A stretch of 64,000 nucleotides of DNA from Promethearchaeota archaeon (GTDB lineage: Archaea; Asgardarchaeota; Lokiarchaeia; Sigyniarchaeales; SOKP01). The DNA is taken from NCBI GenBank assembly GCA_048937405.1, contig JBHLNF010000001.1, positions 224,001 to 288,000 on the forward strand. The letters are read 5' to 3'. How positions within the stretch are numbered: position 1 is the stretch's first letter; each line of letters opens with the position of its first letter. Positions 6,424-57,907 of this stretch are shown here, in pieces. The position numbers were made by a program, and so were the translations under genes. Under the pieces are notes generated by a model. It was not told the origin of the DNA and searched no databases. It saw only the letters and a list, made by a program, of their open reading frames with translations.

Positions 6424-6580
6424 GGCCCTTGACGGTCGGAATTGCTTGTAGATCATATAGATCTTCAACGATAAGTGGTCTCTGACGTTGGGCTTCAAAC
6501 CCAGTTATCCTGCGGAGGGATAGGAGTTCGATAATCATAAGATGTTATCTTATCTTCGAATGTCTCCTCGAGGGCCGCCA
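6424..6580 (+). tRNA. selC: tRNA-Sec (anticodon TCA at 6495-6497) with two BHB-type introns: 6441-6474 (D arm) and 6533-6562 (T loop, 59/60)
   Basis: After splicing: 9-bp acceptor GGCCCTTGA/TCGAGGGCC, 7-bp D stem GTCGGAG/CTCTGAC with TGGT loop, 6-bp anticodon stem with loop CTTCAAA, long variable arm, 4-bp T stem GGAG/CTCC with TTCGATT, and G73-CCA. This is the 9/4 archaeal/eukaryotic Sec fold, directly upstream of SepSecS. Confidence 0.95.
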
Positions 6581-56830: not shown

Positions 56831-57117
56831 AAAACCACCTATTTATTTTTTAATTTAATTTTTGATAAAATATTATAAATAAATTGTTATTTCTTAATAA
56901 ATCTTAATTCTCTTGAGATTGATTATTTGGCTTATTATGAATCTGGAGATTAAATTTAGTTTTCTTAAGAACGATTAAGATGAAAGTAATTCTGAAATAC
57001 TTAGTTCTTTCATATTAAATTGAATAGAACTCATAAAGAAATGTAATTCATAAGTTCAAAAAAAAATAAATATATGTCAATATAAAATTAAAAAAAAAAG
57101 AAAAAGATAGTTTTTAA

Positions 57118-57317
57118 TTACTCCTTTTTAAAAAGATTTCCACATCCCCCACACTTAATAGTTTTAGCATAAACCGGAGTACCCTGCTTCAGCAGTATGC
57201 TTAATTAGCATTACTTATACTGTAGTAAAGCACATTACTCTTATCTGGTTCTTCATGAAGCATTCGTGGATTCTCATTTCCACATTGGGGGCATTTAACT
57301 CTTTTAAAATCACTCAT
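57118..57317 (-). CDS. Intron-containing small zinc-ribbon protein (exons 57317-57217 and 57187-57118; 56 aa spliced)
   Basis: Spliced: MSDFKRVKCPQCGNENPRMLHEEPDKSNVLYYSMQGTPVYAKTIKCGGCGNLFKKE*. TATA-like TTTAAAAT about 30 nt upstream and a T-run downstream. Confidence 0.8.
57188..57216 (-). other. 29-nt BHB/BHL-type pre-mRNA intron
   Basis: Transcript: CAGU AU^A AGUA A UGCU AAUUA AGCA UACU GCUG AA^G. This gives a 4-bp central helix CAGU/GCUG, 3-nt bulges and an 8-bp inner hairpin. The intron holds an in-frame UAA and its length is not a multiple of 3. Confidence 0.8.
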
Positions 57318-57376
57318 AATATCTTAACTCTGTATTCAAATATTTTAAATATTTAGTAGAGTGAATAAATTTAAAT

Positions 57377-57907
57377 TTAGGTATTTAGATTGGTATTTAT
57401 TACAATCTCGTGAACAATTTCTTTAATAGTTTTATTTGTGGTATCAATCATAAATTCAGCTGATTTTTCATATAAAGGTTTTCGAAAATTTAAGATTTTT
57501 AAAATTTCTTTCTTAGGGTCTTTTTTATCAATGAGAGGTCTTGTTTCTTTGCCATCCTTTAAGGCTCTCCTGAATATTTCATCTGGAGTGGCCTTTAATA
57601 AGACAATATGACAATTTTTACTTAAATGCAGAATATTTATAGGATTTAAGACTACTCCACCCCCACATGAGATCACAACTTTGTTAAGTTTAGAAACTTC
57701 TTTACACACTAAAATTTCATATTCTCTAAATTTATCTTCTCCTTCTTCTGCAAAAATTCTGGGTATTGACTTACCGGCTTGTTGAATAATAAGTTGATCT
57801 GTTTCGATAAATCTATAATCGTTCCCTAGATAATCAACTAATGCTTTTCCTATTGTGGTTTTTCCAGTAGCCATAAAGCCAATGAGTGCTATTGAATCTT
57901 TTCCCAT
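57377..57907 (-). CDS. aroK: Shikimate kinase (bacterial AroK type)
   Basis: LIGFMATGKTT, IFAEEGEDKFREYE, SCGGG, TRPL and RKPLY. Confidence 0.92.
   Translation of the reverse strand: MGKDSIALIGFMATGKTTIGKALVDYLGNDYRFIETDQLIIQQAGKSIPRIFAEEGEDKFREYEILVCKEVSKLNKVVISCGGGVVLNPINILHLSKNCHIVLLKATPDEIFRRALKDGKETRPLIDKKDPKKEILKILNFRKPLYEKSAEFMIDTTNKTIKEIVHEIVINTNLNT

What the first reader, a model, noticed from the sequence alone, without database searches (positions are those of the whole stretch)
57118..57317. A protein-coding gene interrupted by a tRNA-type (BHB) intron: candidate pre-mRNA splicing in an Asgard archaeon
Seen in sequence: the minus-strand gene starts MSDFKRVKCPQCG... and hits a stop after 38 aa. 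The second half of the zinc ribbon (QGTPVYAKTIKCGGCGNLFKKE*) lies in another frame. The intervening RNA folds as CAGU-AU^A-[AGUA A UGCU AAUUA AGCA UACU]-GCUG-AA^G: a 4-bp central helix flanked by 3-nt bulges, an 8-bp inner hairpin and a relaxed outer helix (GUGCUUU/AGGGUAC). Cutting after the second nucleotide of each bulge, the established rule for the archaeal splicing endonuclease EndA, removes exactly 29 nt (57188-57216). That deletes the UAA, fixes the frame and creates an AUG codon at the junction (YYS-M-QGTP), giving a complete 56-aa CxxC...CxxC protein. The bulges AU^A and AA^G are the same ones used by the tRNA-Sec introns in this window, and the length falls within the 17-53 nt range of the local tRNA introns. 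Established: archaeal mRNA BHB introns are rare, the classic case being crenarchaeal cbf5. Inference: EndA plus RtcB splice this mRNA, so expression could be gated by splicing (conceptually like HAC1/XBP1 unconventional splicing). Such genes are invisible to ORF callers, so more may exist genome-wide.
Basis: partly seen in the sequence, partly recalled or inferred. Interest (0 to 1): 0.95.

Follow-up and report, generated by a model that had tools for sequence, protein, structure and literature searches.

The report
tRNA-type mini-intron in Asgard gene
A tiny zinc-binding protein gene in a Loki-type Asgard archaeon is interrupted by a 29-base insert shaped like a tRNA intron. Comparison with 48 sister species indicates that the insert is cut out of the messenger RNA, which published work has confirmed for almost no archaeal protein gene.

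Summary

**The insert.** The minus-strand gene 57317-57118 is broken by 29 nt (57216-57188). Removing them by the standard archaeal rule, a cut after the second base of each 3-nt bulge, gives a 56-aa four-cysteine protein and rebuilds a Met codon.

**Distribution.**
- 49 of 54 genomes of the genus hold the gene, and 35 of them carry exactly 29 nt at this site.
- The other 14, and about 170 relatives elsewhere, run straight through with ATG there.

**Evidence for splicing.**
- The stems covary: 8 of 12 core pairs change on both sides, with 94% paired against 15-48% in slid controls.
- Exon 2 is under purifying selection only in the spliced frame (pN/pS 0.14 against 2.96).
- The genome has an alpha/beta pair of splicing endonuclease subunits and RtcB.

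**Other introns.**
- Three congeners carry other tRNA-type introns at three further positions in this gene. One is a near copy of the first.
- I verified the same kind of insert in three other genes of this genome: rubredoxin, methylmalonyl-CoA mutase and Elp3.
- The scan had already noted such introns elsewhere in this genome.

**Weak points.** The outer helix is poorly supported, the motif is not the lowest-energy fold, and regulation by splicing has no support.

The parts
57217..57317 (-). Exon 1: start codon, first Cys-x-x-Cys, 33 codons plus the first two bases (AT) of the split Met codon
   Evidence: pN/pS 0.16 among 33 intron-bearing orthologs
57188..57216 (-). 29-nt intron (phase 2), holding the in-frame stop of the unspliced reading
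   Evidence: same length and place in 35 congeners, absent in 14; mean pairwise difference 0.23 against 0.57-0.69 at synonymous sites
57118..57187 (-). Exon 2: last base (G) of the Met codon, 22 codons with the second Cys-x-x-Cys, and the stop
   Evidence: pN/pS 0.14 in the spliced frame, 2.96 in the unspliced frame, 1.04 in the third frame
57219..57222 (-). Exon strand of the 4-bp central helix (CAGU, inside the Tyr-Ser codons)
   Evidence: pairs with 57190-57193; 99% of cells paired in 35 sequences, with one pair changed on both sides. All 35 intron-bearers use an AGY serine codon here; intron-less relatives also use TCN
57190..57193 (-). Intron strand of the central helix (GCUG)
57216..57218 (-). 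5' three-base bulge (AU^A); inferred cut between 57217 and 57216
   Evidence: ATA in 29, ATT in 3 and ATG in 1 of 33; left unpaired by RNAalifold
57187..57189 (-). 3' three-base stretch (AA^G); inferred cut between 57188 and 57187
   Evidence: AAG in 29, ACG in 2 and AGG in 2 of 33; the joint is ATG in 33 of 33. RNAalifold pairs two of these bases with exon 1, so the bulge is not clean
57194..57215 (-). Intron hairpin (4 bp, bulged A, 4 bp, 5-nt loop)
   Evidence: 7 of 8 pairs change on both sides while staying paired
57179..57233 (-). Span of the candidate exon-exon outer helix (57227-57233 with 57179-57185), set off from the core by a 4x4 internal loop
   Evidence: 93% paired, but 4 of 7 pairs never vary and the one covarying pair joins two synonymous third positions. 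Inconclusive, so the motif is of the relaxed kind
57090..57105 (-). T-run directly after the stop; a likely archaeal terminator, and the only one, lying after exon 2
   Evidence: read by eye; not tested
57341..57349 (-). A/T-rich TATA-like box 24-32 nt upstream of the start codon
   Evidence: read by eye; not tested

Best explanation
The gene encodes a 56-aa four-cysteine zinc-ribbon protein of unknown role. It is transcribed as one RNA with a 29-nt bulge-helix-bulge (tRNA-type) intron inside its invariant Met codon.

Proposed mechanism:
1. Four bases of exon 1 pair with four bases near the 3' end of the intron. The intron hairpin stacks on one side of this helix and a weak exon-exon helix lies on the other.
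2. The heteromeric (alpha-beta) splicing endonuclease cuts after the second base of the 3-nt stretch on each side of the helix.
3. RtcB joins the exons, recreating AUG and the frame. The intron is probably released as a small circle.
4. Unspliced RNA can give only a 38-aa half protein.

History: the intron arose once inside this genus and was later lost cleanly in at least one and probably two or three lineages. The same gene took up further such introns at three other positions in other species.

Shown here: the anatomy, conservation, covariation, frame-specific selection, colinear intron-less orthologs, and presence of the enzymes.
Inferred: cleavage, ligation, the circle, and the order of gains and losses.
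For: 1. Anatomy and arithmetic hold.
2. 35 of 49 congeneric orthologs carry exactly 29 nt at the same base. Removal by one rule gives ATG and a full-length protein in every case checked.
3. Orthologs without the insert read straight through, with Met-Gln-Gly invariant: 14 congeners, 15 from other families, 76 more from genome records and 80 from metagenomes.
4. Covariation in 35 sequences: 93.6% of core cells are paired against 15-48% when partners are slid. 8 of 12 pairs change on both sides, and 0 of 500 shuffles reach this. RNAalifold finds the same core unaided.
5. Exon 2 has pN/pS 0.14 in the spliced frame, like exon 1 at 0.16, but 2.96 in the read-through frame. Synonymous divergence is 0.6-0.7, so a dead gene would have decayed.
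6. The genome has two endonuclease paralogs and RtcB. One paralog keeps the catalytic His and is nearest to the Aeropyrum chains 3p1z_B and 3ajv_B. The other lacks the His. Only the alpha-beta and epsilon types are reported to cut relaxed motifs (PMC5829648).
7. The same rule repairs other interruptions of this gene in G016 (31 nt), G017 (30 nt) and G029 (32 nt).
8. It also repairs three other genes of this genome. For methylmalonyl-CoA mutase the two exons match Pfam profile positions 2-54 and 58-512. Rubredoxin covers 1-47 only when spliced. In Elp3, exon 1 matches ELP3_N and exon 2 the radical-SAM domains.
9. A tRNA-SeC in this window needs two such removals before it is recognised.
Against: - No RNA or protein data were available. 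The exact spliced proteins of three species are not in the 15-billion-protein collection. No metagenome contig looks like a spliced copy; the best is 87% identical.
- The motif is relaxed. The 3' bulge is bordered by an internal loop, and the outer helix has little independent support.
- The motif is not the lowest-energy fold. The central helix is in the MFE structure in only 12 of 33 species, with a median penalty of 3.3 kcal/mol and 6.1 in this genome.
- Stop codons alone do not exclude a single ribosomal frameshift inside the insert.
- A naive genome-wide scan for the motif joined to open frames showed no excess over frame-shifted controls. The motif as I defined it is not specific on its own.
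Confidence: 0.88

Rival explanations
1. Translational recoding. The insert stays in the mRNA, and ribosomes either shift frame inside it or hop over it as in phage T4 gene 60. The hairpin would act as the stimulator.
For: In 32 of 33 species there is a stretch where both frames are open, so one shift could in principle link the exons. A stable hairpin and an in-frame stop lie in the insert.
Against: - A frameshift would put roughly 10 unconserved residues into the most conserved motif and remove the invariant Met.
- The open stretch is 1 nt long in this genome and differs between species. There is no shared slippery site.
- Matched take-off and landing codons are absent in 12 of 32 species and lie at different places in the others.
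- The insert evolves by paired changes in stems, not as codons.
- Intron-less alleles lack exactly these 29 nt.
Confidence: 0.04
2. A broken gene. The insert is a disabling insertion and the locus is a pseudogene, or two separate half-size products.
For: Gene callers would see only a 38-aa frame. The spliced protein is absent from protein collections.
Against: - The interruption persists in 35 species whose synonymous sites differ by 0.6-0.7, yet both exons keep pN/pS near 0.15.
- The length never drifts from 29 nt.
- Exon 2 has no start codon of its own in this genome.
- 35 independent assemblies rule out an assembly artefact.
Confidence: 0.02
3. The insert is removed from RNA, but by something other than the tRNA splicing endonuclease. 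Examples are another structure-specific nuclease with RtcB, or a self-cleaving element.
For: The 3' bulge and outer helix depart from the strict motif. Cleavage by the endonuclease was not tested.
Against: - 29 nt is too small for any known self-splicing intron.
- No Rfam family matches anywhere in the window, even at E 0.1.
- The boundaries obey the endonuclease rule at seven separate mRNA interruptions checked here. Removing two inserts by the same rule is what lets ARAGORN find the tRNA-SeC.
- The genome has the broad-specificity enzyme type.
Confidence: 0.05

Closest known systems
Bulge-helix-bulge intron in the cbf5 pre-mRNA of Crenarchaeota (Watanabe et al. 2002; Yoshinari et al. 2006; Yokobori et al. 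2009, PMC2738675)
   Same: - A short tRNA-type intron inside a protein-coding frame.
- The host has a hetero-oligomeric splicing endonuclease.
- The intron was gained in an ancestor and lost again in some lineages.
- It is hidden from gene callers.
   Different: - A different gene (a 56-aa zinc ribbon) and a different phylum (Asgard).
- At least four intron positions in one tiny gene across a genus, one intron being a copy of another.
- Several other genes of the same genome are also interrupted.
- cbf5 splicing was shown experimentally; this was not.
Non-canonical tRNA introns of Asgard archaea and Thermoproteales (PMC11291895; bioRxiv 10.64898/2026.10.13.758758)
   Same: - The same motif, the same cutting rule and a similar size (30 and 34 nt in the tRNA-SeC of this window).
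- The same enzymes.
- Many independent gains.
   Different: - The host is an mRNA, so the exon half of the motif must also encode protein. Here that is the Tyr-Ser codons.
- Those two papers deal with tRNA genes only. Full-text searches found no report of such introns in Asgard protein genes.
HAC1/XBP1 unconventional mRNA splicing (Ire1 plus tRNA ligase or RtcB)
   Same: A spliceosome-independent cut-and-join of an mRNA that changes the reading frame. The ligase belongs to the tRNA-splicing system.
   Different: - Ire1 recognises twin stem-loops, not a bulge-helix-bulge.
- That reaction is stress-regulated.
- Nothing here indicates regulation. The resemblance is conceptual only.
Translational bypass in phage T4 gene 60
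   Same: A short untranslated gap with a hairpin and a stop codon inside a coding frame.
   Different: There is no conserved take-off and landing codon pair. The gap is missing precisely from related alleles, and its stems covary with an exon strand.

Membership tests
Archaeal bulge-helix-bulge intron (EndA/RtcB-spliced) | 4-bp central helix formed by the 5' exon and the 3' end of the intron | tested here: met
   57222-57219 pairs with 57193-57190. 99.3% of cells are paired in 35 sequences. One pair changes on both sides and one on one side.
Archaeal bulge-helix-bulge intron (EndA/RtcB-spliced) | Two 3-nt bulges on opposite strands, each cut after its second base, giving a functional product | tested here: met
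   The 5' bulge is clean. Applying the rule gives ATG in 33 of 33 and a full-length protein. The cuts themselves are inferred.
Archaeal bulge-helix-bulge intron (EndA/RtcB-spliced) | Flanking helices on both sides (intron hairpin h' and exon-exon helix h) for the strict form | tested here: inconclusive
   h' is strongly supported: 7 of 8 pairs covary. h is separated from the core by an internal loop and is mostly invariant. It therefore fits the relaxed form described in PMC5829648.
Archaeal bulge-helix-bulge intron (EndA/RtcB-spliced) | Host encodes a splicing endonuclease able to cut relaxed motifs, and an RNA ligase | tested here: met
   There are two PF01974 paralogs. One has the catalytic His and one lacks it, and both match solved endonucleases. 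RtcB scores 565 bits. Subunit assembly is inferred.
Archaeal bulge-helix-bulge intron (EndA/RtcB-spliced) | Intron-less homologs are colinear across the joint | tested here: met
Archaeal bulge-helix-bulge intron (EndA/RtcB-spliced) | Excision and exon ligation seen in RNA | not testable with these tools
   No transcript data were available. Look-ups for spliced products found nothing.
cbf5-type pre-mRNA intron | Host gene is cbf5 (pseudouridine synthase) of Crenarchaeota | tested here: not met
   The host is a zinc-ribbon protein with only sub-threshold Pfam zinc-ribbon hits, and the taxon is Promethearchaeota. It works like the cbf5 intron but is not that intron.
HAC1/XBP1-type regulated splicing | Twin stem-loops with 7-nt loops cut by Ire1 under stress | tested here: not met
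   The structure is a single bulge-helix-bulge with one hairpin. An Ire1 homolog was not searched for.
Programmed translational bypass | Conserved matching take-off and landing codons flanking the gap | tested here: not met
   Absent in 12 of 32 species and at varying places in the rest.

The most novel reading that the evidence does not exclude
This gene is one visible case of a still-active population of about 30-nt tRNA-type introns that colonise protein-coding genes throughout this Asgard genus.

Such introns would spread by being copied into any site whose sequence mimics the six exon bases of the motif. In G016 a near copy of intron 1 sits 17 nt downstream (the two introns occupy 539-567 and 585-615 of the oriented locus), behind the same six bases. 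They would be lost again precisely, through the spliced RNA. That would be intron gain and loss by an RNA route in the closest archaeal relatives of eukaryotes.

My evidence shows four intron positions in this gene and three other interrupted genes. It does not show the copying mechanism or how many genes are affected.
Probability: 0.45. Interest if true: 0.93.

Novelty: new member of a known kind. Interest (0 to 1): 0.82.

Why it matters
In the papers I could search, an archaeal tRNA-type intron inside a coding frame is established only for cbf5 of Crenarchaeota. Here is a second, independent host gene, in Asgard archaea. Its comparative record is unusually complete: presence and absence within one genus, covarying stems, frame-specific selection, clean losses, and new introns appearing at other sites of the same gene.

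Three consequences follow:
- Gene catalogues of these genomes miss or truncate real genes. This one is called as 38 aa or not at all.
- tRNA-type introns can persist inside the most conserved motif of a protein.
- The question of how such introns arrive becomes testable in a lineage relevant to the origin of eukaryotic gene structure.

Tried and rejected
- **Single-sequence folding.** The MFE fold is not the motif and z is only -1.46, so the case rests on comparison.
- **ARAGORN and Rfam on the window.** They found nothing, even at E 0.1. The tRNA-SeC appeared only after candidate introns were removed.
- **Genome-wide census by motif plus open frames.** I ran two designs. The correct junction frame gave no more hits than junctions shifted by 1 or 2 nt: for example 835 against 819 and 890, and 35 against 36 and 33 with both frames at least 40 codons. 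My motif definition is therefore too loose for a 29% GC genome. A census needs homology. True cases (mutase, Elp3) sit among false ones.
- **One false positive.** An in-frame TGA in an MvhD-like gene is more likely selenocysteine than an intron.
- **Other copies of this intron.** A profile search of the genome found only the intron itself.
- **Exact look-up of three spliced proteins.** They are not in the collection.
- **Search for spliced-looking copies among 80 metagenome loci.** The best was 87% identical.
- **Function of the protein.** Pfam gave only sub-threshold zinc-ribbon hits. The ESM Atlas returned only unnamed or generic zinc-ribbon clusters at cosine scores of at most 0.90.
- **rpoB protein tree.** Too conserved to resolve the genus. 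The DNA tree was used instead.

Full report
**What is in the window.**
On the minus strand an ATG at 57317 opens a frame with a Cys-x-x-Cys pair that stops after 38 codons. The second Cys-x-x-Cys pair and a stop at 57120-57118 lie in another frame.

Deleting 57216-57188 (29 nt) joins the two parts. It turns AT + G into ATG and gives a 56-aa protein.

By eye, an A/T-rich box lies 24-32 nt before the start, and the only T-run lies after exon 2. That fits one transcription unit. Neither feature was tested.

**The proposed fold.**
- Four exon bases (57222-57219) pair with four intron bases (57193-57190).
- A 3-nt bulge (57218-57216) precedes a 22-nt hairpin (57215-57194).
- A second 3-nt stretch (57189-57187) follows the helix.

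This is the layout of the archaeal bulge-helix-bulge motif, in which the central helix is made of 5' exon and intron 3' end. In a canonical tRNA the cut falls after position 37; this point rests on established knowledge of the motif.

On this single sequence the fold is not convincing. The MFE structure is a different extended hairpin with z = -1.46, and the motif costs 6.1 kcal/mol more.

**Comparison settles the observation.**
A six-frame search of 61 relatives with the spliced protein showed two kinds of ortholog: unbroken ones, and ones matched in two pieces about 30 nt apart.

Reading the DNA gave the following:
- 49 of the 54 genomes of the genus hold the gene.
- 35 carry exactly 29 nt at the same base.
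- 14 congeners, and all 15 orthologs fetched from three other families, have ATG there and run straight on.
- A further 76 genome records and 80 metagenome contigs with unbroken orthologs were found through the motif that spans the joint.
- In the unbroken family Met-Gln-Gly is invariant, so the insert sits inside the best conserved motif.
- Every one of 33 simple intron-bearing genes gives ATG at the joint and a protein of 54-56 aa, or up to 74 aa where the script took an upstream alternative start codon, when cut by the rule.

**RNA structure is under selection.**
In the alignment of 35 intron-bearing sequences the 12 core pairs are paired in 93.6% of cells. With the partners slid by 1-3 columns the figure is 15-48%.
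- 8 pairs show changes on both sides.
- None of 500 column shuffles reaches any of the five measures.
- In the hairpin 7 of 8 pairs covary.
- The central helix is 99% paired. One species changed both the exon base and its intron partner.
- All 35 use an AGY serine codon, which supplies two bases of the helix. Intron-less relatives use AGY or TCN.

RNAalifold, given no hint, returns the central helix, the 3-nt 5' bulge and the hairpin.

Two caveats apply. The sequences are related, so shuffle counts are not probabilities. The structure was also first drawn on one of the sequences. The many double changes and the slid controls carry the argument.

**The protein is made from the joined frame.**
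Among 33 intron-bearers, synonymous sites differ by 0.57-0.69 per site. Despite that:

| Region and frame | pN/pS |
|---|---|
| Exon 1 | 0.16 |
| Exon 2, spliced frame | 0.14 |
| Exon 2, unspliced frame | 2.96 |
| Exon 2, third frame | 1.04 |

A pseudogene would not keep this pattern or a fixed 29-nt length. The intron itself differs by 0.23 per site, less than silent sites, as expected for a constrained structure.

**Enzymes.**
The genome has two paralogs with the endonuclease catalytic-domain fold.
- One (197 aa) keeps the His and Lys of the active site. It is closest to the Aeropyrum pernix chains 3p1z_B and 3ajv_B.
- The other (200 aa) lacks the His.

These readings come, and identifying the catalytic residues rests on my knowledge of the family. 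The pair fits the two-subunit alpha-beta type. According to PMC5829648, that type and the epsilon type are the only ones that cut relaxed motifs. The bioRxiv census 10.64898/2026.10.13.758758 reports the two-subunit type for most Asgard genomes. RtcB is present.

**Organism.**
Contigs of congeners are deposited as Promethearchaeota, Promethearchaeia or 'Hodarchaeota' MAGs. The same order holds Promethearchaeum syntrophicum MK-D1 and Lokiarchaeum ossiferum. Promethearchaeota belongs to the Asgard kingdom.

**History.**
All outgroups lack the intron, and the 35 introns are alike in sequence, so one gain inside the genus is the simplest reading.
- On an rpoB DNA tree the state needs at least three changes. 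A clade of eight intron-less species nests among intron-bearers, and one intron-less species is sister to a clade of 26 bearers.
- An AU test rejects the bearers as one group, p = 0.0035.
- That suggests one gain and two or three clean losses, each restoring exactly ATG, as was argued for cbf5 (PMC2738675).

This is one gene and a quick tree, so exchange of alleles between species is not excluded.

**More introns in the same gene.**
- **G016** has, besides intron 1, a 31-nt insert in the Tyr codon 17 nt downstream. It lies behind the same six exon bases and is 24 of 29 identical to intron 1. Its sister G014 lacks it.
- **G017** has a second, unrelated 30-nt insert in a Lys codon.
- **G029** lacks intron 1 but has a 32-nt insert with a perfect 4-bp helix and an 8-bp hairpin in the neighbouring Lys codon.

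In all three the same rule restores a full-length protein. One 56-codon gene thus shows four intron positions in one genus.

**Other genes in this genome.**
Following leads from earlier notes of this scan and my own scan, I checked three cases.
- **Rubredoxin** (contig 7, 432998-433026, 29 nt) matches its Pfam profile end to end only when spliced.
- **Methylmalonyl-CoA mutase** (contig 15, 3033-3063, 31 nt) has exons matching profile positions 2-54 and 58-512.
- **Elp3** (contig 25, 116201-116231, 31 nt) has exon 1 matching the ELP3 N-terminal domain and exon 2 matching the radical-SAM and radical-SAM C-terminal domains.

Their introns share layout but not sequence, and a profile of the present intron finds no other copy here.

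A naive census failed, because hits in the right frame were no more frequent than in shifted frames. I cannot say how many genes are affected.

**Rivals.**
- A ribosomal frameshift is not excluded by stop codons. It would, however, insert about ten unconserved residues into the invariant motif. It has no shared shift site, and it does not explain stem covariation or the clean absence of exactly 29 nt in relatives.
- Bypassing lacks conserved take-off and landing codons.
- A pseudogene or an assembly artefact is excluded by conservation in 35 assemblies and by selection.
- Another nuclease cannot be excluded without experiments.

**What is not shown.**
- No RNA or protein evidence exists here.
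- The 3' bulge borders an internal loop, and the outer helix is weakly supported.
- The motif is not the MFE fold in most species.
- Nothing supports regulation by splicing.
- The protein's role is unknown. A related ribbon is fused to a gelsolin repeat in a paralog.

**Known or new.**
Full-text searches found tRNA-type introns in protein genes described for crenarchaeal cbf5. For Asgard archaea they found heavy interruption of tRNA genes, but no report of such introns in Asgard protein-coding genes. The library does not hold every journal.

I file this as a new member of a known kind. It carries unusually strong comparative support and has a more novel possible reading, an active intron population, that remains open.

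Noticed in passing
window 6424-6580 (+): ARAGORN detects a tRNA-SeC (anticodon TCA) only after two bulge-helix-bulge inserts are removed: 6441-6474 (34 nt) and 6533-6562 (30 nt). Several alternative boundaries for the second insert also give a call, so its exact ends are not fixed.
   Followed up: partly
L029 (G016), oriented positions 585-615: A second 31-nt intron in the same gene, 24 of 29 identical to intron 1. It lies behind the same six exon bases, and the sister species G014 lacks it. It looks like an intron copied to a new site.
   Followed up: partly
L018 (G017) oriented 1655-1684; L015 (G029) oriented 1623-1654: Two further, unrelated introns (30 nt and 32 nt) sit in neighbouring Lys codons of the same gene in other species. 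Both are repaired by the same rule.
   Followed up: partly
G000 contig 7: 432998-433026; contig 15: 3033-3063; contig 25: 116201-116231: Rubredoxin, methylmalonyl-CoA mutase and Elp3 are each broken by a 29-31-nt insert of the same layout. Pfam matches run on across the joints.
   Followed up: yes
G000 contig 13: about 235747-235776 (+): An MvhD-like frame has an in-frame TGA where relatives have Cys in the Gly-Cys-x-x-Gly-x-Cys region. It is probably selenocysteine, and it came up as a false intron candidate. The comparison with relatives is from memory.
   Followed up: no
L197 (G000 contig 14: 2500-4700), frame 2-724: A paralog of the zinc ribbon forms the C-terminus of a protein with a gelsolin repeat (PF00626, E 2e-8). 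Congeners have 335-349-aa frames holding the same ribbon.
   Followed up: partly
window 57377-57907 (-): The upstream neighbour is a 176-aa P-loop kinase-like gene that I read as shikimate kinase; this was not tested. It lies next to the ribbon gene in 45 of 49 congeneric loci.
   Followed up: partly
G062 contig 25: 21895-25206 (L175): The rpoB frame is open for only 988 aa instead of 1124, although the contig continues. The cause was not examined.
   Followed up: no
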